A stretch of DNA of 64,000 nt, taken from NCBI GenBank assembly GCA_003344405.1, contig NOWV01000018.1, forward strand, positions 682,001 to 746,000, written 5' to 3'. This DNA is from Trichoplax sp. H2. Lineage: Eukaryota. Positions 3,001 to 63,134 of this stretch are shown in pieces (position 1 is the stretch's first letter; each line of letters begins with the position of its first letter). Below the pieces are notes generated by a model, which was not told where the DNA came from, did not search any database, and saw nothing but the letters and a program-made list of their open reading frames with translations. The translations under genes were made by a program, and so were the position numbers.

Positions 3001-6000
3001 AAGCTTTCTTCAAAATAGTAAAATATGAATTTACCTCGTGCATAGGGTAGGTTAAGTAATTTTCTAATTTAGCTCCCAAGCAGGCTGGCTTTTGCTCTAA
3101 CTGGCACAATAATTTATTGAAAGTTGGCCTAATTTTACATTCAGCTAAGACCTACGTTTTAAAATCATTATAGATGAGACATCATGTTCAAATCATGCTT
3201 ATAATAGCACCGTAATTCTACCATTGTTATTACTTACTTGCAAACTATAATGATGATTGCGGACATATTCTTGATAAATGGCTAATGTGGGCAGAAAAAC
3301 ATCCAACAAATTGCCTAGGTATATTACAAAAGTATCATTTATTATGCATTGGTATTGTTAATGTAGTAGTATTTTAGCACTACAGGATATATTTTCTGTA
3401 TACATATTTCTAACTAAAATTAATTTGTACTAGGCTAGCAGACGTTATAGAATTACCAATTTGTAAGGTAGGCCAGTTTTCTATTCTGGAGTGAAGAATT
3501 TTCAAGATAATTTGATGAAGAAATAAAATGGTTTCGCTAATAAAATACAAGTTGATTAGTTTGATACCTTTTGAATTCGGATATGACATATATAAATGCA
3601 ATTACAAATCAATTTCAACAATCCAAACTTGAATTTATTTAGCAGAAATTTAGTTTAGAAGGTATAAATTAGGACATAAATTATGTAATACAATTACGAG
3701 GTCAATTTTATTACTCTAAACTGGAATATATATTCAATAGAAATTTAGTGCATAAGAGTAGAAGGCACAGATAAGAATATTGAAATTATAACGCAGTTTA
3801 AAATAACTTTAATGCTGTAAACTTGAATATAGTTGTCGTAGTGAAATTTTAGTATATGCGATTAGAAGATGTATGCGTAAATTAAGATATTAAGGATGGA
3901 AAGCAATTGCAAACTCAATATCAGTACACGAACTTGAATATATTTAGCATAAATTTAGTCTATATAATTAAATACGTGAAAGAGGATATTAATGGTGTAC
4001 AGTAATTATAAAATCGATTTCAATACTCTGTACTTTGATTATACAGTATTTATCAGAAACTTAGTATCTACGTGTAGAAACCACTGATTCAAAAACTGAC
4101 AAATTCATTCTTACCAATTTAGAAAGATTGAATTAACTTCATCATGAGTAACCGAAGGCTTTTTAGAACTTGCCGCCATCTTTAAAGGTCTCAAATAGCA
4201 AGATACAAGAATGGACATTTGTTGTACATAATTTCGTTCTGATTCGTACAATTGAAAGAAAATGCCATTCCGTTTCTTCAAAATATCACTATGTTCTGAA
4301 CTGACATAATTCTGGACGATCGCTTTCCATTTCCTGCGGCATAGCCAGCCACGAATAAAACTTTGAATCTAATAAGGTATTGAATAGTTATGTTGAACTT
4401 ATTATTAGAGCTACAAGAAATTATATATCAGTATCAATTGCAAGTAAGAGATACAGGTAGTTTATAAAACCGTCATTTAGGTTTCATTTTATGAAAGCTA
4501 TGAATATAATTTACAGTTACTATCAGAGCCATATTATATTATAAATCGATATTAAGTCCAGGAGATACATGCACGTTATAAAACTGTTATTTTAGTTTCA
4601 TTTTATGAAAATTTTCAATCTAATAGGTAGTGAATAGCTCTATAGAGTTGTTATCAAATCAATATGAAATTATAAGCCGCATTAGATCTAGGATATACAA
4701 TAGTTATAAAATTTTGTTTAAATATCCTATACTATTTGAATGTAATCAAATTATCACCACAGCAAGCCAATCTAATAAAGTTACCTTTTTGATCTTTTGC
4801 AGTTCTTCTGGTTCATTTTGAGTGCTTAATTTCAACTCACATCGTAAGCAGTGCATCTGAAAACAAGGTAATCTTAGCTTATTTAACAGGATGAACGAGT
4901 CTCAAGAATGTAACATTACCTCTCCCTTTAAATTTCGAATTTCCATTTCTTGATTCTGACATAGCTGGCGAAGCTGTTTTTTCTCAATCTCTTCATTTTC
5001 CATAATTTTCGTTAAATGATCATATTTTCTATCGATTTGGTTACGGGCAGTTCGAATATCTTCATAACTGTAGACATTAGAGCAAGCTGTTAGGGTTCCT
5101 TTAATCGAAATGTTTATTTAATCCATGTAATCCTTTCGACTGTATCAGACTGATTAATGAACAAGTATGACATTAATGATTATCGGGCGAACGACTTCAA
5201 ATGGCCATAAATTATCCTATAATTTTGGTCTCTAAATGATAACAATATCTTACCGGCAACCACGGATATTGTCGACCCAAGCTCTTAAATCATCGTCAGT
5301 GTCAGCAGCAAAGGTAAATTGTTTCTGGCCATGGCCAGATAGCTCAATTGTGAAGATATGCTAGAAAGGAAAAGATAAAGTATAACAGTCAGAAATTGCG
5401 TCGTTTCTTTGCCTGGTAGATGGAACAAATAATTAGACCTTTTGATAGATTTTAAAGTAAATGATTAATACAATAAGAAGGTAAAGTTTAAAGTAAACGA
5501 TTAACACAGTAGGGTGAAATATAAATAGTCATGAATTCATAAATATGTTACAAATTTCAGTAATTTCTTATGGTTAATCTCGGCCATAAAAGATCAAGGC
5601 AATAAACAATATTGGTGATATTGGCTGACAGTAAGCATCTCTTATCCTTATAGTTAAATTTTATCAAAGGTAAGAAGAAACTAATGCTATGATATTAATG
5701 TTATTTTTAGTGAGCAGTTAACAACTCTTATTTTCACTGATGAATATTATTGGAAACAACAAGCAACCATGCTATCATCAATTTTATAATAGTACTAAAA
5801 TAAATAATTTATAGAAAGGCGAATATCATCTCCGACATGGCAAATTAATTATTTTGTTGTTATGATTGTCTATACTAGCAAAATGGATAATAAGTGATAG
5901 ACCTTAAAAGATTCAATCAATCTGGAAATGAAAATTGATGATAGCCGTAATCATGAATCATTAATAGCACATTTCATATCTGATACAAATAGAAAAGCAA

Positions 6001-26502: not shown

Positions 26503-26575
26503 TGGAGAATCCGGGTATCGATCCCGGTACCTCTCGCATGCTAAGCGAGCGCTCTACCATGTGAGCTAATTCCCC
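26503..26575 (-). tRNA. tRNA-Ala-AGC: tRNA-Ala (anticodon AGC)
   Basis: Minus strand reads GGGGAATTAGCTCACATGGTAGAGCGCTCGCTTAGCATGCGAGAGGTACCGGGATCGATACCCGGATTCTCCA. It forms a 73 nt cloverleaf with the G3:U70 alanine identity pair, anticodon stem CTCGC/GCGAG around TT-AGC-AT, and A/B boxes. Confidence 0.98.
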
Positions 26576-49600: not shown

Positions 49601-52600
49601 ATGTTTGTAGTAATATAGGCACCAAATAACCTAAAGCACCCTTGACGTAATGTTTACTTGTTTGCTCTGGAGGTCTTCCAGCTTCTGCAGCCTTTTATTC
49701 ACAATCGTTAGTGAAATCGATTAGTGAAGATATTCTAACATAATTTTTTTTTAACCGCTCTGCTGTGGACTTACATCGGCAGCCTCAATAGCTAAATCAA
49801 CCTCTTCGTCACAAATGCTTGACCAAAATTCAATACCTTGTAAAGCAACCGCATCTTGATGAGAAGTCATAGCATCTATCGTAATCTAAATGATAGAATA
49901 AAGTATTTCGAAATGAGTAGATGACAAGGACGATTAATATTTAGAAGCAAGTAATATAATAACAATCATTTACCGCAAATAACGCTGGTCCCATGTAATG
50001 TTCCATATACTGGTAATATAATGTGACAATCCTGACTAGGTTTTGAAGGGCAGCAACACGGATCTATGATTGTATAATAATCATATTTCATTTTCTACTC
50101 ATTTCCTGGGAATTAGAATCAAGGCAATGAATAAATGACCAGAGTTTCTCATACCTGCTCATCAGGGCTTTGCGTTGCTTCGCATAGAACTTGCATGATA
50201 TAATGTCTCTCACTCTGTATGTGTTAACATAATTGCAAGTTACTCCTTTTCTCAATGCAAATCATACTAATGGTAAAATCCTTCATTGAATATTTACTGT
50301 TTTCTCAAAGTTTGCTTTGGTGAATTCTAAAGAATTTAATAAGGCTTTTGCAGCGGCGAGTCGGACATAATTACTAAAATAATTTAAAATAATAATCGCT
50401 ATGAATGTCTATTATATATATAATAAACCGATTACAAACAGATTCAATTTTTTAGCATTTCATTTTATGGAAGATTCTAGTATCTCGATATCTAACCTGG
50501 GCTCTTCCTTTCGCATTCCTAATATTATCGCCGTTAAAATGTCATTAGATTTTGACGATATAACATCAGGGTCCTACCATTGAAAGTAGTAGAAAATCAT
50601 ACAGGTAAGTTCATTATTAGTCTTTAAAAGTTATAGCAAAATATTAATTTTAGGTTACAAGCGCTATATTAGAAAACAAAAACAAAATTTTGTGCAATTA
50701 TATTTTGCAATAATGAAGATCTTCACCACATCCTTACTTACAGCGATATCGCTACAAATGTAGCCTATAGCCTCTAATGAAGATTCCTTCAACGCTTCTG
50801 TACTATGTTGATTAGTGACGTTTCGAACTAATGTGGGTATAACCTCAGGCCAAACATTAAATGGCAATTCGACGCAAGCAATGCTAGCAACACACTAGAA
50901 TTTTAAGATGAGTTCAAAGATAGTTACTAGTTAAACAATTAGTTAATATCATTGTAATGATTCATTTACGGCTTCTATTGCATCATTTCAACAATATCGT
51001 TAGATACGAGGAAAAATCTATAATAACTACAATAGAAGGTCACTATTTAGTTTAACGTATATCAGACTGTGAGAGCTGCCTAAACCTATTCTACAATCAT
51101 AATTATATTTTTTGCCCGTTTGCCTATAGAAGAAATACAGCTAACCTGAGCGGCAGATGAAGGTCGTGAAGGTTCAGTTCCCAAGGTTTGTAAAACCTGA
51201 ATTAAAATGAAGATGTTAAAATTAGCTACGGCTACAGCCAAAAAATTGCACTCTACTTCTGCAGTATTAATGATACAATTCTCCTATCCATAAAGCATCT
51301 TGCGGTATCGCTAAATCTTACAGTAATTCTAAATTATGCGATTTAAATACTAGTAAAATCTCACCAAGTTTTTAATATGGTAGCGAACATCATTACTAAA
51401 TGTTTTCCATCTTTCTTGATACTGTAACTTGATAGCGGGGTCTTTAGATGTAAAAGAATTTTTTAAATTGATTCCAGCAGCCATTCGAACGACCTGAGAT
51501 TTATCGGTATTGGCCAATATATTGACCAAGGCCACCAAGAATTCCGGCTGTGTACATGGTAATGAAAGATAAATTTTAAGATTAGTTACGTTATTAATCT
51601 TGTTTACGAATATAATGTAGTACCAAAATCTCCTCCGAATAATTAATTTGATAGAAATTATATGACATTTAATGGTAAAATTACAACTTGTATGCAGTAA
51701 GATAAAAACGAAACTGTTATGATACCACTAGCTAATCTATACTTTAAATCTATAAGTCACTGATACATAAAAATTAATATGTAAAACCCTCTGATCTGTC
51801 ATAGTATTCAAAGGGCAAGTATGATAAATGGTTATGCTGCACTTACCAGATTTCTTTCTGCGGCTTGTTCCACATATTTTTGTGCAGCAATTAATTCATT
51901 ATTGTCTGTTGCAAATTAGAATGAAAGAAATTTGCTACCTTAATATCATGTACTATACTTTGCAAGAAATAGTGCATTATAAACTATCTTTGGTAAGAAT
52001 TAGCATATATCATCCTATAAATTTAAAGATGCATGAATTCCATTAATGTAGTGTTTGCTCGTAATCCCCTAGTACTACTAGATTATGAATACAACTATGC
52101 ATTTCTAGTAGAATTCTCGCATTATGTATAGTACAATAAAATAAATATAAGAAATGATCATTTTAATGGCCACTTTCATCTCGGCTAATTTTAAATATAC
52201 AAATATGTTAAGGTGTCCGTACTAGATTGCAACATTAGTTGTATTATTATAACTATCAACCATAAATCGGTCTACACCACATAAAATAACTGAGTTTCTA
52301 CAGTGTACGATAGACCATTAAACTTATACATTCATTGCTCCTAGGCTGCTTAACCGTACTTTATGTTTGATCCAATCGTAATGCAGACCGTCGAAGTGTT
52401 TGTAATATAATCATAGAGTCAAGTATGCTAGCTAGCCTGCATTGAATCTTACTTACAATTCGTATCTGTATGCTTATTGGTGCATAACAGATTAACATGG
52501 TGGATGTGCACAGTCAACCAACACTCATGTATAAATTTACATCTACTTTGGTTCCATTTCTGTATTGTAAACTCGATCTTATCACTTGGCAAAGCTAGTC

Positions 52601-55299: not shown

Positions 55300-56535
55300 C
55301 TCTGCCTTCCCCCCGTTTGCTGTCACTGGCTTCAACTTGCTAATGCAGTCGCCTGGTGTACACTGTACACTGCCATGTCATGAACTGCGATACTCGACCG
55401 TGAAGTTCACACATACAGTACAGTGTACTGTACAGTACATGAGAAGAGAGGAATTCACCGAACAACGATACAGTACTGTACAGTGTACTGTACTATACTG
55501 TACTGTACGTCATTCTATCTGTCTTTCACTGCACAGTACAGTGAAAACCAACTCGCTACAGTACATACTTTCAGGGGGTGACAATTGGGTTTGTAAAGGC
55601 TGTACAGTACGTATTTCACTCACCCACAGTATTTTGCTGTCACTGGCTTCAACTTGCTAATGCAGTCGCCTACTGTACACAGTACAGTACACTGCCATGT
55701 CATGAACTGCCATACTGTACTCGACCGTGAAGTTCACACATACAGTACAGTATCTGTAGCGTACAGTACAGTGTACAGTACATGAGAAGAGAGGAATTCA
55801 CCGAACAACGATACTGTACTGTGTACTGTACTGTACAGTGTACAGTACTGTACGGTATTTCACTCACCCACAGTACAGTACAGTACATTATACAGTATAA
55901 TAATAATAATAATTAATTATTATTATTAACAATACAGTACACTAATGCCGTACAGTACGTTGCTGTGCACTGTGTGCCTATACAGTATTACAGTATTATT
56001 ATTATTAATCAAGTTTAATGTTAATAAATTTAATTTTACTTTTACAAAAGGTTAATATTATTTTTATTTGAGCTTGCTCTGCCCCCCCCCCCTTTTGCTG
56101 TCACTGGCTTCAACTTGCTAATGCAGTCGCCTGGTGTACAGTACTGTACACTGCCATGTCATGAACTGCCATACTCGACCGTGAAGTTCACACATACTGT
56201 ACACTGTACAGTGTCTGTAGTGTACAGTACAGTGTACAGTACTGTACATGAGAAGAGAGGAATTCACCGAACAACGATACAGTACTGTACAGTACTGTAT
56301 TTCACTCACCCACAGTACTGTACTGTACTGTATAATAATAGTAATTAATTATTATTATTAACAATACACAAATGCCGTACAGTACTGTACGGTACTGTGT
56401 AGTGTGTACTGTACAGTCTGTGTGTCTACACTGTACACTGTACTGTACAGTATTACAGTTTTATTATCAAGTTTACTGTTAATAAATTTAATTTTACTTT
56501 TACAAAAGGTTAATAATATTATTTGAGCTTGTTCA
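55300..56535. repeat. Three-copy high-identity tandem repeat (~320-460 bp units) interrupted by TA(CAG/CTG)TA insertions
   Basis: Copies start near 55316, 55632 and 56093 with TTTGCTGTCACTGGCTTCAACTTGCTAATGCAGTCGCC. They share CTCGACCGTGAAGTTCACACA and CATGAGAAGAGAGGAATTCACCGAACAACGA. Confidence 0.95.
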
Positions 56536-56957
56536 ATATTCAAAGTAACACAGTTGAACAGTGAATACTACACAAGTAGCCCGAAACTGAAGCCCTCAAA
56601 GCTATTCAATGCAGTCTAGAAATAGCCACACGAGTATACTGTACTGTATATAGCAATCACATCTCTGATTTCTCATCATTCCAAATGTGGCTGTATCGTC
56701 CTCGACTGTACTGTACTAAAATTTTGCAAGCCCGCTTTTTTCCCTGGCTTCGGTCTTTCCACATTCACCTGAATGAATAGTTGATACTGTACTGTACTAG
56801 TGCACATCTGAGGATCGTATTGTAGTCACAATTCCTCACAATAAGTAGAAGACAGCAGGGGACACAACGCATCCTTATTAAAAGGGTTATGGTCAGGGTT
56901 ACTCTCTCCGACGGATCAACACTTTGAACGACACGCACGTCTTAACCTCATCTCACC

Positions 56958-57106
56958 TACACTACAGTGTACAGTACAGTACAGTACAATATTGCAGAAC
57001 ACTATTCTGGCTGTACAGTACAGTACTGTACTGTACTGTACAGTGTACAGTATGTACAGTACTGTACACCCGTTGTCTAAAACTGTACCTTGTACAGTAC
57101 AGTACA
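56958..57106. repeat. TA(CAG/CTG/CAGTG/TG)TA concatemer
   Basis: For example CTGTACAGTACAGTACTGTACTGTACTGTACAGTGTACAGTATGTACAGTACTGTACA. Confidence 0.8.
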
Positions 57107-58673
57107 ATTCTGAACAATTGTATTACGTCAGTATTTCATGCGGGGTGGTCGACTAAAGAGCGTGCTGTTCAGGGGCGATGCTCCCCTACTGTAGCAAGAT
57201 CACACTTTTTCTCAACCCTGCTATGACTGCATAGTATATTACTGCCAGGGCGTCCACCATGACCCGACCCACTGGCTGACTTTGGCCCACAGTAGAGTTC
57301 ATATAGGCAAAGGAGACGATTAAGTACCCTAGCACTAACAACTGCCCTACCCAAAGTTGTCAGCAAAATACGAAAGTACATCATTAGTTATACGATAATT
57401 TGGAAGAATCGTCCTTAGCTTATTGCGCCAATTGGGTTTAACGATCTTCTACAGGTAAGTTGAAATTGCCACATGATTGATCTGGACTCATTCTGTATGT
57501 TTTATTGAGTCGTTAATGATGCTATTGAAATGGAACGAATGGACATGGTGCGTTTAGTTTGAAGTTATTTTTTTCCTTTTTCTTCATACTTGGATGATAT
57601 AGTCGTGGATGAGCGGCGCATACCGCTCACTACTGACAGTAGTATAGACTGACGTAGCTAGAGACACCCTATTGTATTGCTACACATAGTAGGAATGGAC
57701 ATGAGGAAATAAAGCCATGGCAGATACTATGGCTGTAATTCTTGTCTGAATCATTGGATAATCAATGATCGCTGATATGGACATGGCGACATCTTTTACG
57801 TCCATCTTCATCTTCAATTCAACTATCTAGTTGAACAGGAGTCATGGTATGGAGAAGTCATTTCCATCCTGTTGGAGCAATGACCATTGCCCTGATAAAC
57901 GTGTTGTCACACCGCACGGGTAGCTTCCCAACTTTTTCACTCTACGGTCAAGAGCATATTTGTATCTATCGCAGCCAGTAGTAGATCGTCTAGGGAGGCA
58001 AACAGAAAGTAATTTATCTTCATGACTAGACTACGCAGAATAGTATAGACACTTTTTGAACTAACTGTTCGTTCATTCTCCTTTCCACCAAGACAAGGAT
58101 CGATCAAGTATGGTACTTGATCGATCGATTGGTCATTGCATGATCAAATTGTCATTCAGTGCAATCACTACAGTACACTAGCAGGGACGAGCGTCTGATC
58201 CAATGGAGCCGGTTCCTTCAACCAATTCGTGGACAATTTTATTGTCATTGAAAGATTCTTGTTAATGCTAGGATACTACCCAATTAATTTCACTGCCAAT
58301 GTATTAGTTCTAGTACTAGTTTGCTTTCATCTTGCAATATCCAACAGTTTACTCATTTTCTTCATGAAAATCGACGACGCGTTGTAGTATTGACGTACAG
58401 CCTAGTAGACTACTGTACAGGCCATATACGACGCAAGCGGCAGATGTAAAGTCAATTTTACAATCAACGAACAGATTGCTATTTGTCAATCAATTCTATC
58501 ATTAATGTCATAAAAATCATCGACGTAAGCTGTACTATTTTATTTCGGGGAATTTTCAATTCTTTCATTATCAATTACTATACGATATCGCTGTTATTGT
58601 CGCTTTGAATTGAAAATGTTCTCTAATTTTGGCACTTGTTTTGCTTATAGGAATTCATCACCAATAACATTCG

Positions 58674-61600
58674 ATGGCTTCTAGAGGGCAACCTCAACGT
58701 CCTAATGGTAGTGGACAATCTAAAATATGCCAATTCAAGTTGGTTTTATTAGGTAATTCATTTTTCTACGCGAAAGCGTTATTGTACCAAGAGGAGTTTT
58801 TTAAACGTGATATATAAATCCTAAAATCTACTATAAACACACAGTATGTCAATAGCCGACGACAATCGTGTCTTTCGCAATATCGGAAGACGATACTCGA
58901 TAAGTGAAATCTTCTTATCATCATACGAGTTGGAAGATTGCCTTCCTTTATGCGTAGCTTGATGCTTCCGCATTTGGATAGTACTCCCCCATTAAACTTC
59001 ACGCTGATCGACAGAATGATGAACCATTTTTCCCCATCATACTCATAACGTCCACTGCATATTGCAATCGTACCTTCATATTCATACGAATAATAACCAG
59101 CATAAATTTCGAAAGCATGCAACTGTCTGAATCGTATTAATTCTATGCTTTCGTTATTTAATCATAATCAAATTTGAATATATTCTAGTCTAAGTGATGA
59201 ATGAATATTTTACCACTACTATACTTTATTATCAGACGTATGCAGTTCGAGCTTGGAATACGTCTTCAACCTTAGTTCTATCGTGCTGATCATAACTGTT
59301 ATTTTAGTATGTTGTTTTATGTAAGTTCACATGCGATATAGAGACTCTAGACTTTAGAGTGAAAGTTACGTTCCCATAGTGTTTAACGCTAGTATTTTTT
59401 ATGACGTCACACTTAAAATTAAAACTGAAGACAACATTGACTAGAGTATTGCATACTACAGCATACTACAGAATTGTATGAAAACAGTAAACATCCTGTC
59501 TCATCGATCTCAAACAAGCAAGGGGAATGGATCATGATGGCTGCACAAGATCAATCCTTTTTTAAATTTAATCGTTACTTACATTTACTGTACACCCATT
59601 TGGATGGTAAATTAAAAGATGTAATTGCTAGAAAAAGAATTTTTCGCACTTTTTCTGTCGGTGTACACATTACTATTTACCTTGATAAATAGCAAAAAGA
59701 AACTATTTCAGCATTGATTTTCCTCTTTTGCTTACTTGATAATTTGTAAAATTTTAAATTTTATAAATTTATCCTATGTGAATTATAATATGTATAAATA
59801 TTACGAATTCTATCGGCCGAAATATTAGGTGCCTCAGTAGCATGGGTGATTTAAAAATTCGAATTATAAAGGTTCTGAATTTTATGAGTTTATCAAAGAT
59901 AAATTATATTATCTTAAGCACGTATATTGCTCACTCGCATAAGCTGGCCGGTAGTAAAATGTCATAAGGTACATGTTCTACTACTGTACAGTAGAATCAA
60001 TTAAAAGTGACACTGAGAGTGGTTACATTTGTCTGATCATATTATTCCAATTCGTATATTCTGCGATCTCAGCAATATAATTTCAATTTATTCTGCTAAA
60101 ATTGTATAGGTGTGTCTACATGGCTTATAATGGCTATAATTTTTAAATAAACAGATAAATATTATATCTAGTGAAAGCTGCGTACAGTAATCGATTGGTC
60201 CTTAACGCATTGCATTCTTAGCAAAGACGAAAACATAAACTACTTGCAATTTTTATGCAGTGCGTGATCGTATTACGTAATATAAACCCGCTTAGAAGAT
60301 ATCTGTAGTTGAACTTAGAACGTTCTTATACAATACTTTAACTATATTTGGGGTTGCCCTCAAAACCTGTATTACTCATGGTCGGAATTACGTTCAATCG
60401 ATTTAAATCACTCGCGGTAGACTTTTTATACGTATACAGGATATAAATTACACTATCGACAAGATTCTCTCGATAATGATTAAAATTAAAAATAACGTAT
60501 AATAATCATTAACGGTTTATCCAAGTTTGATCCTGTAGCGTAATTTTATATACATGTATACAAAGGAATGAATTAATTTATGCGAGTTATGGTCGTTAAA
60601 TTTACGCTATTACAAAATATGCGAATTCGAATACTTCAAATTGCCATATAAGAAATATAAGCGGCGAAATTAACATAATATTGTGTATTTGATAGGTGAA
60701 TCTGCTGTTGGCAAATCAAGCTTAGTCTTGCGATTTGTTAAAGGTCAATTCCAGGAATATCAAGAAAGTACTATAGGAGGTAAGAAAAGCTCTTCCATTT
60801 GGAGAAATTACACTATCCATGACACAAAGATGAAACTGATTTAATTACTCAATTTAATCGAAAACATTACGTACTAAAATAATTCTACACTACTGAAAAT
60901 ATGTTAGACTAATGGTTGAAGTGTATAAACAATTTTAATCATAACATTAATGATATGATTATTACTTCTATATAGCTGCCTTCCTTACGCAGACGGTTTG
61001 TTTAGACGATGTTACTGTCAAATTTGAAATTTGGGATACAGCTGGACAAGAAAATATCTTTTTGATACTTCCATGTTGCGATTCTGTTCTCTTAATTTAT
61101 ATCTACAATTATGAATAGATCAACTTTATAATTCAATTCCTTGACTGCATTTTGTCGATATTTACGATATCATAGCTTGGCCCCTATGTACTATCGTGGA
61201 GCTCAGACTGCAATTGTTGTATATGATATATCCAACGCGGTAATATATATAAAGCAATAGCGACACCATCGAATTTGAATACTAATAATTATTCCTATCC
61301 CAATCCATTGTAGGAATCATTTCAACGTGCAAAAGCATGGGTTAAGGAATTACAACGTCAAGCTAGCCCTAACATCGTAATCGCATTAGCTGGTAACAAG
61401 GCAGATTTGGCTAATAAAAGGATGGTTGATGCTGATGTAAGAGTTAAAATCAATAATCATAAATATTATGATTCAGTTTTCACGCTAAATATTATATCTA
61501 CTGTATGATTAACCATAGGAGGCACAGGTTTACGCTGAAGAAAATGGGCTATTGTTTATGGAAACCTCCGCTAAAACTGCTATGAATGTAAACGAAATAT

Positions 61601-61797
61601 TTTTAGCTATCGGTAAGGACTACGTACTGAAAACCTCAACTAAGTGATCAAGTAATAATTTACAATCTTCTTTTTAAGCCAAAAAATTACCAAAATCTGA
61701 GCAAGGTGGTGGTGGCGCTGCTACTCAAGGTGGTGCGCGTGTTGTAGATATTAACAAACCTGCAAATAATTCTGGAGGAGGTGGTTGTTGTAAATAA
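58674..61797 (+). CDS. RAB5: Rab5 small GTPase
   Basis: Exons: 58674-58752, 60696-60779, 60976-61053, 61166-61239, 61314-61436, 61519-61612, 61679-61797. Motifs: [92 protein letters not shown], and C-terminal GCCK prenylation signal. Confidence 0.98.
61054..61165 (+). other. U12-type (minor spliceosome) AT-AC intron in Rab5
   Basis: The 5' end is ATATCTTTTT, the branch site TTCCTTGAC is at 61137-61145, and the 3' end is TTTAC. Removal restores GAA A|GA TAT CAT = E-R-Y-H. Confidence 0.95.
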
Positions 61798-63134
61798 GTT
61801 ATCAATGACGAAAGTACAAGGCTATCTATAGGGAGAGTAGATTGACGATAAATTTATTTCATATGGACAGTTTGCCTTATGCTGTATAATTTTCTTTCTT
61901 CGAGTCTCGGTTTCATGTAGCGAATGGATAGCTATATACCTATTCCTGCGGATATTATAGGAAATCTACGGTGTTAGTGATAAAATAGGCAACCTAAAAT
62001 TCGTATGCGTGCTTCACTTGATTGTATGGTTCTTCAATAACTAATTATATTAGATACTATAATAATACTGGAAGTGATGTTATAAACGGATTTTGCTATC
62101 TTACTACTAATTAAAGTAAACAGTCACACATACTATAAAAATTGTAACAGGTAAGATCATACTTGTGCTATAGTTGTAAGTCCTACTGTTCAATATCAAA
62201 TACCTATTGTAGTCATTACTAAAATTAAAATTTATAGTAGCGCTACCTTGACCTATTCTACGCATTTCATTACAATTAATATACTGTATGACTATCTTAA
62301 TAGCTGTCTAATATGAAAGTGTATTACCCAATGTTGTTATTGGGCTTCTTAATTGTATATCGAAATTAAAGTTACATTTTTTTAATTGTCATTCAAATGT
62401 AAGTGTTGCCAAGAATCTTTCTACTGCCGTAAAAATTCAGTATATTGTAGCTGTCTCAATGTAATGATTGGTAATCTGATTAAGATACTGAGGAAATAAA
62501 ATTGAATACCAAAAATTGGTACGTCACCCGTACTACTTATAAAAATAGTATACTTAACGTTAGGACAACAATATCAGATTCATAAATGGTGTTAGTATTT
62601 TATTTAATACTCGTTTGACCTTCATTGATCTAGCTCCTGATGTACAGTAAATTAGATTCAGCTCGGAAAGAGTTGATAGTAACAATTTTAAATATGCCCG
62701 TAAATTAATATTGTACAGCGTAATTTTACTCTACTGTATATCATGAAATAATATCCAATCGAAAAGTCTGGCCAGCGAGTCTTTAAGATTTGCTGACTTG
62801 TTAGATGTTATAATGATACGATAATAGATCCACAATAAAGCATTAACTGCATAGATGCATAGAGTTGCTATATCGATAGTAGCAAACAGCCCGCATCAAA
62901 CTACCGTATCATTGCCCATTATACAGTACAGAAGAAAGAAGGCATATGTAACTATACAATACATGCGCCCATGTATTCGCTAAATTGACATTACAATACT
63001 CAAATGTCGTTAAACATATCGTATTTACAGGAGTAGTTCATGGCATTTAGTGATCCGCGTAATTACATAATTTCTTCATGTTGAATCGTATGCATAAAAA
63101 TTATATACTTATTATCTCATAAAAATTGTTACTG

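What the first reader, a model, noticed from the sequence alone, without database searches (positions are those of the whole stretch)
61054..61165. Minor-spliceosome AT-AC intron inside the Rab5 G3/switch II motif
Seen: a 112 nt phase-1 intron with ATATCTTT donor, TTCCTTGAC branch site 20 nt from the AC end, and exact restoration of [16 protein letters not shown]. All other Rab5 introns are GT-AG. Established: these are U12-type signals, and U12 introns are rare and can be rate-limiting. Inference: this organism has a working minor spliceosome that gates its early-endosome GTPase, and automated models probably mis-annotate this exon. I cannot say whether the intron has been reported.
Basis: partly seen in the sequence, partly recalled or inferred. 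Interest (0 to 1): 0.7.

Follow-up and report, generated by a model that had tools for sequence, protein, structure and literature searches.

The report
U12 AT-AC intron in placozoan Rab5
The Rab5 gene of a placozoan (Trichoplax) really is interrupted, in the middle of its GTP-sensing switch, by a rare minor-spliceosome (U12-type, AT-AC) intron that transcripts remove exactly as predicted, that both public gene models get wrong, and that also sits at the same spot in Rab5 genes of other, distant eukaryotes.

Summary
A complete seven-exon Rab5 gene (216 aa) lies at 58674-61797 (+). Its third coding intron (61054-61165, 112 nt, phase 1, splitting Arg81 after DTAGQE) starts ATATCTTTT, carries TTCCTTGAC with the branch A 21 nt from the end, and ends AC. 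The other five coding introns are GT-AG.

RNA contigs of 3 of 3 RNA runs laid (all from one study) join 61053 to 61166 exactly.

The exons match Rab5 of Trichoplax sp. H2 and T. adhaerens exactly, so the window is placozoan. Published work already reports all four minor snRNAs in T. adhaerens. Both public protein models are wrong at this intron: one skips exon 4, the other inserts 13 residues into switch II.

The same AT-AC intron, same site and phase, was found in 15 of 15 metagenome loci matching a WDTAGQE+donor pattern, all of them Rab5-family. A matching signature appears in 7 of 120 short genomic ORF fragments.

Human and mouse minor-intron tables and an insect list contain no Rab5, and I found no paper describing this intron.

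It is a new member of a known kind. The "gating" idea is untested, and no intron-retaining contig was seen.

The parts
58674..58752 (+). Rab5 coding exon 1 (Met1 to the first base of Gly27). RNA contigs show the transcript already covered from about 58417.
   Evidence: model; table 8 (contigs 58417-58678/58754) and joint 58749->60693, GT..AG
60696..60779 (+). Rab5 exon 2 (P-loop GESAVGKSS ... ESTIG)
   Evidence: joint 60777->60974 GT..AG in 3 of 3 RNA runs
60976..61053 (+). Rab5 exon 3 (AAFLTQ...[11 protein letters not shown] plus the first base of Arg81)
61054..61165 (+). U12-type AT-AC intron, 112 nt, phase 1, inside the G3/switch II motif
   Evidence: RNA joint 61053->61166 with AT..AC ends in X6, X7, X8
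61054..61062 (+). 5' splice site ATATCTTTT. It matches the U12 consensus ATATCCTTT (consensus recalled) except T for C at +6.
   Evidence: The same 12-mer (AAAATATCTTTT) is listed for the human SMC3 minor intron in the MIDB supplement.
61116..61118 (+). In-frame TAG inside the intron. A retained intron would end the protein 21 codons after Glu80.
61137..61145 (+). Branch-site motif TTCCTTGAC. The presumed branch A is at 61144, 21 nt before the last intron base.
   Evidence: TCCTTGAC occurs 174 times among curated mouse and human minor-intron branch sites.
61164..61165 (+). 3' terminal AC
61166..61239 (+). Rab5 exon 4 (last two bases of Arg81, then [24 protein letters not shown]). This exon is missing from the public Trichoplax sp. 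H2 model.
61314..61436 (+). Rab5 exon 5. It is 100% identical to both named Trichoplax Rab5 proteins.
61519..61612 (+). Rab5 exon 6
61679..61797 (+). Rab5 exon 7, with the C-terminal CCK prenylation tail and stop codon. The 3' UTR continues to about 62488-62513 in RNA contigs.
   Evidence: table 8

Best explanation
Intron 3 of a placozoan (Trichoplax) Rab5 gene is a genuine U12-type AT-AC intron removed by the minor spliceosome.

Inferred mechanism, from the established U12 pathway:
1. The U11/U12 di-snRNP recognises the ATATCTTTT donor and the TTCCTTGAC branch site together.
2. U4atac/U6atac.U5 then catalyses removal of exactly 112 nt.
3. This rebuilds codon Arg81 and the switch II sequence [16 protein letters not shown].

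Shown here: the exact splice in RNA, the motifs, and the same AT-AC intron in other Rab5-family genes. Inferred: which spliceosome acts, and which adenosine is the branch point.

The intron is constitutive as far as contigs can show. It is best read as an old Rab5-family minor intron kept in placozoans and some other eukaryotes. It is absent from the human/mouse minor-intron tables and the insect U12 list checked. Gene predictors that assume GT-AG mis-model it.
For: 1. Sequence: AT...AC ends, donor ATATCTTTT, TTCCTTGAC 21 nt from the 3' end, and exact frame restoration.
2. RNA: contigs in 3 of 3 RNA runs laid (one study) join 61053->61166 with no positional ambiguity. The likely DNA run X1 is contiguous.
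3. Both motifs occur in curated minor introns. In MIDB supplementary file 1 the counts are ATATCTTT 4 (against ATATCCTT 302) and TCCTTGAC 174 (against TCCTTAAC 243). The window's 12-mer donor equals the human SMC3 entry.
4. Orthologous introns: a pattern for WDTAGQE followed by [AC][AG]TATC[CT]TT found 15 metagenome loci. All 15 are Rab5-like and all have ATATCCTT. In 14 of 15 the intron is complete and ends AC exactly before G[GA] of the Arg codon. The fifteenth is cut by the contig end.
5. Of 120 short genomic ORF fragments homologous to exon 3, 7 read DTAGQE-NIL..., which is what A|ATATC(CTN or TTR) encodes.
6. Minor snRNAs U11, U12, U4atac and U6atac are reported for T. adhaerens, with U4atac expression verified (PMC2655684 passages; PMC2396436 passages).
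7. The window's exons are identical to both named Trichoplax Rab5 models over all shared residues: 80+111 and 80+136.
Against: - The donor has T rather than C at +6, a rare variant (4 against 302 occurrences in the MIDB file).
- The branch A is 21 nt from the 3' end. That is longer than the 11-13 nt optimum I recall, though within the range I recall as functional.
- No formal U12 score (intronIC) could be computed.
- The snRNAs could not be sought in this assembly.
- All three RNA runs come from one study and are assembled contigs, not reads.
- Which spliceosome acts has not been tested.
Confidence: 0.9

Rival explanations
1. It is a U2-type (major-spliceosome) AT-AC intron that only happens to resemble U12 signals.
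For: Rare U2-type AT-AC introns exist (recalled knowledge). The donor departs from the U12 consensus at +6. The branch-site to 3' end distance is 21 nt.
Against: The donor shares ATATC.TTT with the U12 consensus and not the ATAAGT-like U2-type AT-AC donor (recalled). A near-perfect TTCCTTGAC lies in the right zone. All 15 orthologous introns have perfect ATATCCTT. There is no evident polypyrimidine tract before the AC.
Confidence: 0.05
2. Beyond being a U12 intron, it acts as a rate-limiting switch. Slow or regulated minor splicing, with retention leading to a premature stop, would set Rab5 dosage.
For: Minor introns have been proposed as switches controlled by unstable U6atac (PMC3728624; search listing and abstract only). 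A retained intron would hit an in-frame TAG at 61116-61118.
Against: Depth in bin 60974-61290 (64.8, 71.5, 49.8) equals the exonic fraction (152 of 317 nt) times the spliced contig depth (134.2, 148.2, 103.3). By contrast, low-depth contigs do cover parts of intron 1. Contigs drop rare forms, so this is weak evidence.
Confidence: 0.12
3. The apparent intron is an artefact: either a pseudogene or assembly error, or the spliced contigs come from a retrocopy or another organism.
For: The RNA runs are labelled metatranscriptomic and all come from one study.
Against: The open frame is complete. The same contigs splice all six coding introns at the modelled sites and run into the local 3' UTR. A likely DNA run covers the intron contiguously at single-copy depth. 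Two independent public assemblies give identical exons.
Confidence: 0.01

Closest known systems
U12-type (minor spliceosome) AT-AC introns, as catalogued in U12DB, MIDB and IAOD. Examples are the human SMC3 and RASGRP3 introns with ATATCTTT donors.
   Same: AT-AC termini. The rigid donor /ATATC.TTT. The branch motif TCCTTGAC near the 3' end. No evident polypyrimidine tract. A single minor intron among GT-AG neighbours.
   Different: The host gene differs. No RAB5A, RAB5B or RAB5C entry appears in the 8 MIDB supplementary files. 'Rab' does not occur in the one held supplementary file of the insect U12 paper. T at +6 is the minority form.
Minor introns in other Rab-family genes of mammals (RAB6A, RAB6B, RAB41, RABL2, RABGGTA in MIDB)
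   Same: Small-GTPase or Rab-pathway genes carrying one U12 intron.
   Different: The RAB6A donor context is ACA|GTATCCTTT (mouse) or ATA|GTATCCTTT (human). That is the GT-AG subtype, and the exon does not end in GA[AG]A, so the site is different. In the metagenome scan the WDTAGQE|AT-AC position was found only in Rab5-like genes, 15 of 15.
Public Trichoplax Rab5 models: Rab-5B of Trichoplax sp. H2 (P0002) and TRIADDRAFT_22550 of T. adhaerens (P0003)
   Same: The same gene. 80 N-terminal residues, and 111 or 136 C-terminal residues, are identical to the model built here.
   Different: P0002 reads 11 codons into the intron ([11 protein letters not shown]), uses a GT at 61086 and skips exon 4, so 25 residues of switch II and beta4 are lost. 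P0003 carries a 13-residue insertion (NIFLILPSFCRYL) made of intron sequence. The RNA-supported model restores the canonical [16 protein letters not shown].

Membership tests
U12-type (minor) intron, AT-AC subtype | AT at the 5' end and AC at the 3' end of an intron that is really removed from RNA | tested here: met
   Joint 61053->61166 with AT..AC ends in 3 of 3 RNA runs laid
U12-type (minor) intron, AT-AC subtype | Extended conserved donor /RTATCCTTT | tested here: met
   ATATCTTTT matches 8 of 9 positions of the consensus (recalled), with T at +6. The variant is present in curated minor introns, 4 occurrences against 302. Orthologous loci have ATATCCTT, 15 of 15.
U12-type (minor) intron, AT-AC subtype | Branch-site motif TCCTTRAY close to the 3' splice site | tested here: met
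   TTCCTTGAC at 61137-61145, with the A 21 nt from the intron end. There are 2 copies in the window against 0.33 expected. The distance is longer than the optimum I recall.
U12-type (minor) intron, AT-AC subtype | Removal depends on U11, U12, U4atac and U6atac snRNPs | not testable with these tools
   No genome is held for the window. The snRNAs are reported for T. adhaerens in the literature. Dependence of this splice on them is inferred.
U12-type (minor) intron, AT-AC subtype | Formal classifier score (intronIC or MIDB position-weight matrices) | not tested
   No classifier or matrix was available. Only motif comparison with the MIDB table was done.
Rab5 subfamily GTPase (host gene) | Ras-fold GTPase with Rab5-type P-loop, switch II ([16 protein letters not shown]) and C-terminal Cys prenylation motif, and closest similarity to Rab5 | tested here: met
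   216-aa model. Pfam Ras domain. 141-144 of 159 core residues identical to gecko, sponge and starfish Rab5. Hits are named Rab-5A, Rab-5B or Rab-5C.

The most novel reading that the evidence does not exclude
This is an ancestral minor intron of the Rab5 family that predates animals and may be as old as the last eukaryotic common ancestor. It has been kept at the DTAGQE|R site, always as the AT-AC subtype, in placozoans, in some other animals and in at least three divergent non-animal-like Rab5 genes. It has been lost from vertebrates and insects. Annotation-based minor-intron surveys miss it because GT-AG-bound predictors mis-model the exon.
Probability: 0.4. Interest if true: 0.5.

Novelty: new member of a known kind. 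Interest (0 to 1): 0.35.

Why it matters
- It corrects the Rab5 protein of a key early-branching animal. Both public models have a corrupted switch II, the region that contacts effectors and exchange factors. Anyone using them for phylogeny, structure modelling or reagents would be misled.
- It shows how annotation-based surveys could undercount minor introns. Both Trichoplax species appear in the species list of a 2023 pan-eukaryotic survey (supplement), and neither public model has this intron. That such surveys inherit annotation errors is my inference.
- The same AT-AC intron occurs in divergent Rab5-family genes, while Rab5 is absent from the human/mouse and insect lists. This adds a clean case of an old minor intron lost in the model lineages. 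It gives a simple marker (WDTAGQE followed by ATATCC) for tracing minor-intron loss.
- It does not change what is known about how minor splicing works.

Tried and rejected
- Minor snRNAs in the window's own genome: no genome is held. Rfam on the window gave only tRNA-Ala.
- Earlier notes of this scan: nothing on this genome. Word and sequence look-ups gave nothing on Rab5.
- Literature: 'U12-type'+'Rab5' gave 7 papers, 'AT-AC'+'Rab5' gave 3, 'U12'+'ARA7' gave 3 and 'U12'+'Vps21' gave 1. By title and abstract, none concerns an intron in Rab5.
  - PMC10639083 and PMC11347168 main texts: no Rab5.
  - PMC2846911 main text and 2 supplements: no Rab or Trichoplax.
- Naming the other carriers:
  - A homology search with the longest exon of locus type C gave 2 unnamed hits.
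  - The protein atlas gave only generic Ras clusters.
  - Their taxa therefore stay unknown.
- Other U12 introns in the window: the only other close donor and branch-site pair (3989 to 3896, minus strand) lies inside a GT-started intron of a neighbouring gene. I rejected it as chance.
- A GT-AG alternative for intron 3: none restores the frame.
- Parts of the laid stretch without RNA cover (for example the interior of intron 3) are not evidence by themselves.
- Only 120 of the 255 fragment hits were visible.
- Only one metagenome scan was allowed, so U2-type introns at the same site could not be sought at the DNA level.

Full report
**What is there**

The region 58674-61797 (+) holds a complete seven-exon gene. 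The exons are 58674-58752, 60696-60779, 60976-61053, 61166-61239, 61314-61436, 61519-61612 and 61679-61797. Together they give a 216-residue protein with a Rab5-type P-loop, the switch II sequence [16 protein letters not shown] and a C-terminal CCK.

Five of the six coding introns are GT-AG. The third is the exception:
- It spans 61054-61165, is 112 nt long and is phase 1.
- It begins ATATCTTTT and contains TTCCTTGAC at 61137-61145.
- It ends AC.
- It splits the codon of Arg81 as A|GA.

**Is it more than chance, and is it used?**

No GT-AG pair restores the frame. Reading through the donor gives [21 protein letters not shown] and then a stop at 61116-61118. TTCCTTGAC occurs only twice in the window on both strands, against 0.33 expected. 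RTATCYTT occurs only 7 times.

Direct transcript evidence came from public runs. In 3 of 3 RNA-labelled runs laid (X6, X7, X8, all from one study), an assembled RNA contig joins 61053 to 61166:
- It skips 112 nt with AT..AC ends.
- There is no positional ambiguity, and 73 nt lie on the shorter side.
- Contig depths are 134, 148 and 103.

The same runs show joints at the other five modelled introns. In X6 all five have the modelled GT..AG ends. X7 shows a variant joint at intron 5 (61437->61522), and no intron-5 joint is listed for X8. Run X1, with even depth of about 105, is probably DNA. It is contiguous across the intron and shows no joint there.

These are contigs, not reads, and they come from one study. 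They show that the spliced form exists. They do not show its level.

**Which organism**

- Exon 5 is 100% identical to Rab-5B of Trichoplax sp. H2 and to TRIADDRAFT_22550 of T. adhaerens.
- Over the whole protein, the first 80 residues and the last 111 (H2) or 136 (T. adhaerens) residues are identical to my model.
- Starfish, sponge and gecko Rab5 are 141-144 of 159 identical over the core.

The window is placozoan.

Minor spliceosomal RNAs in this genus are already published. Hertel et al. [quoted passage not shown] Dávila López et al. 2008 (PMC2396436; passages read) also list Trichoplax among metazoa with minor snRNAs, and they note an unusual 'CC variant' of U6atac there. I could not search the window's own assembly, because none is held. 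The window itself holds only a tRNA-Ala.

**Mis-annotation**

Both public models fail exactly at this intron.
- The H2 model (202 aa) reads 11 codons into the intron, takes a GT at 61086 and joins to exon 5. It drops all 25 residues of exon 4, and Pfam sees its Ras domain in two stretches.
- The T. adhaerens model (229 aa) carries a 13-residue insertion, NIFLILPSFCRYL, built from both ends of the intron.

**Classification as U12-type**

The donor differs from the consensus ATATCCTTT (recalled) only at +6. In supplementary file 1 of the Minor Intron Database paper (PMC6717393; supplement searched; mouse and human columns together), the motif counts are:

| Motif | Occurrences |
|---|---|
| ATATCCTT | 302 |
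| ATATCTTT | 4 |
| GTATCTTT | 35 |
| TCCTTAAC | 243 |
| TCCTTGAC | 174 |

The four ATATCTTT entries are RASGRP3 in both species, human ACTR10 and human SMC3. The SMC3 12-mer equals the window's. The branch motif is therefore mainstream and the donor is a documented minority form.

The branch A lies 21 nt from the intron end. That is longer than the optimum I recall, but within the range I recall as functional. No formal classifier could be run. Which spliceosome acts is inferred, not shown.

**Conservation**

I used two indirect samplings, because no eukaryotic genome collection was available.

*First sampling: short ORF fragments.* I searched the protein collection for short ORF fragments homologous to exon 3 plus its read-through. 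This returned 255 hits, of which 120 were listed. Such fragments are exon-sized ORFs called on genomic contigs. Among the 120:
- 111 continue DTAGQE-R[YF]..., meaning no intron at this site. Of these, 108 run on through YDIT.
- 7 read DTAGQE-NIL..., which is what A|ATATC(CTN or TTR) encodes at the same site and phase.
- 2 read DTAGQE-RVFI, which suggests a GT donor two bases downstream.
- None shows the Ser codon that a GT at the same site would give.

*Second sampling: metagenome DNA scan.* One scan of metagenome contigs used a pattern for WDTAGQE followed by [AC][AG]TATC[CT]TT. WDTAGQE is, as I recall, shared by most Rabs. The scan returned 15 loci, all Rab5-like and all with ATATCCTT. They fall into four sequence types.

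In 14 of the 15 the intron is complete and ends AC exactly before GG or GA of the Arg codon. Exon 4 then reads [20 protein letters not shown] or RYRCLTPMYF. The fifteenth locus, an animal-like type, is cut by the contig end.

Two lines of evidence place three of the types outside the animal Rab5 cluster:
- Pieces of the two tested types match Rab5A/B/C, plant RABF2b and yeast YPT51 best in the PDB.
- These three types are 63-69% identical to the window's Rab5 over the positions covered, a rough underestimate. Sponge, starfish and gecko are 89-91% identical.

They are therefore probably non-animal genes or old paralogues. Their taxa could not be named.

RAB5A, RAB5B and RAB5C are absent from all 8 MIDB supplementary files, which do list RAB6A, RAB6B, RAB41, RABL2 and RABGGTA. 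'Rab' is absent from the one held supplementary file of the insect U12 paper (PMC3291851; section 9 and supplement read).

The most economical reading is an old Rab5-family AT-AC intron lost in vertebrates and insects. How old it is remains open.

**Function**

Nothing here supports the idea that the intron 'gates' Rab5. Depth in the bin holding exons 3 and 4 is 64.8, 71.5 and 49.8. That equals the exonic fraction (152 of 317 nt) times the spliced contig depth.

This is weak evidence, because contigs drop rare forms. A retained intron would truncate the protein after 21 extra codons.

**Novelty**

Four literature searches and several supplements gave no report of a U12 intron in Rab5 (28, 29, 33, 58). 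Supplements of bioRxiv preprints, and database dumps such as IAOD and U12DB, could not be seen and may list it.

The kind of element, the presence of minor splicing in Trichoplax, and the pattern of lineage-specific minor-intron loss are all known. This is a new member of a known kind. Its practical value is a corrected protein, plus modest evolutionary interest.

Noticed in passing
window, whole: The U12-donor-like octamer RTATCYTT is under-represented. There are 7 sites on both strands against 21.7 +/- 4.5 in dinucleotide-preserving shuffles, and all 100 shuffles have at least 7. This could be avoidance of cryptic minor donors, or merely higher-order composition.
   Followed up: no
L001, L002, L005, L012, L014 (type A) and L004, L006, L010, L011, L013, L015 (type C): In these orthologous AT-AC introns the only TCCTTAAC motif lies 37 nt (type A) or 50-55 nt (type C) from the 3' end, far beyond the usual U12 spacing. 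The interval is G/T-rich. Either a weaker proximal branch site is used (for example GTTGAC about 10 nt from the end in type A), or the spacing rule is relaxed in that organism.
   Followed up: partly
P0124, P0127: Two genomic ORF fragments read DTAGQE-RVFI.... This fits a GT donor two bases downstream (phase 0 after Arg) rather than the AT-AC donor. It could be a U12-to-U2 conversion with sliding, or an independent intron.
   Followed up: no
window 55300-57250: A block of TACAG/GTACA-type short repeats (periods 5, 10, 15, 17, 19). In the likely DNA run X1 it shows very high summed depth (up to about 33,900 against about 105 elsewhere) and many joints and loose ends. This points to a high-copy dispersed repeat.
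   Followed up: partly
window 61437-61522: In run X7 the contig joins intron 5 as 61437->61522 with two extra letters (TA..AG). X6 uses the modelled GT..AG 61436->61519. This is a minor alternative acceptor or an assembly quirk.
   Followed up: no
window 26503-26575 (-): A tRNA-Ala(AGC) gene (55.6 bits in Rfam). It is the only Rfam hit in the window.
   Followed up: yes
window 51353-51727 (-): An exon-sized ORF with an importin-beta N-terminal domain (Pfam IBN_N, E = 5e-10). It belongs to a neighbouring karyopherin gene.
   Followed up: partly
window 3896-3989 (-): ATATCCTCT, and 93 nt further on, CATCCTTAAT followed by ...TTTAC. The pair mimics a U12 AT-AC intron but lies inside an intron that starts with GTAAGA at about 4113 in a neighbouring gene. 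Probably chance.
   Followed up: partly
literature (PMC2396436): Trichoplax U6atac is reported to carry a '[GU]CCGA' variant in place of the AAGGA element thought to pair with the U12 donor. This may bear on tolerance of T at +6 in this donor.
   Followed up: no
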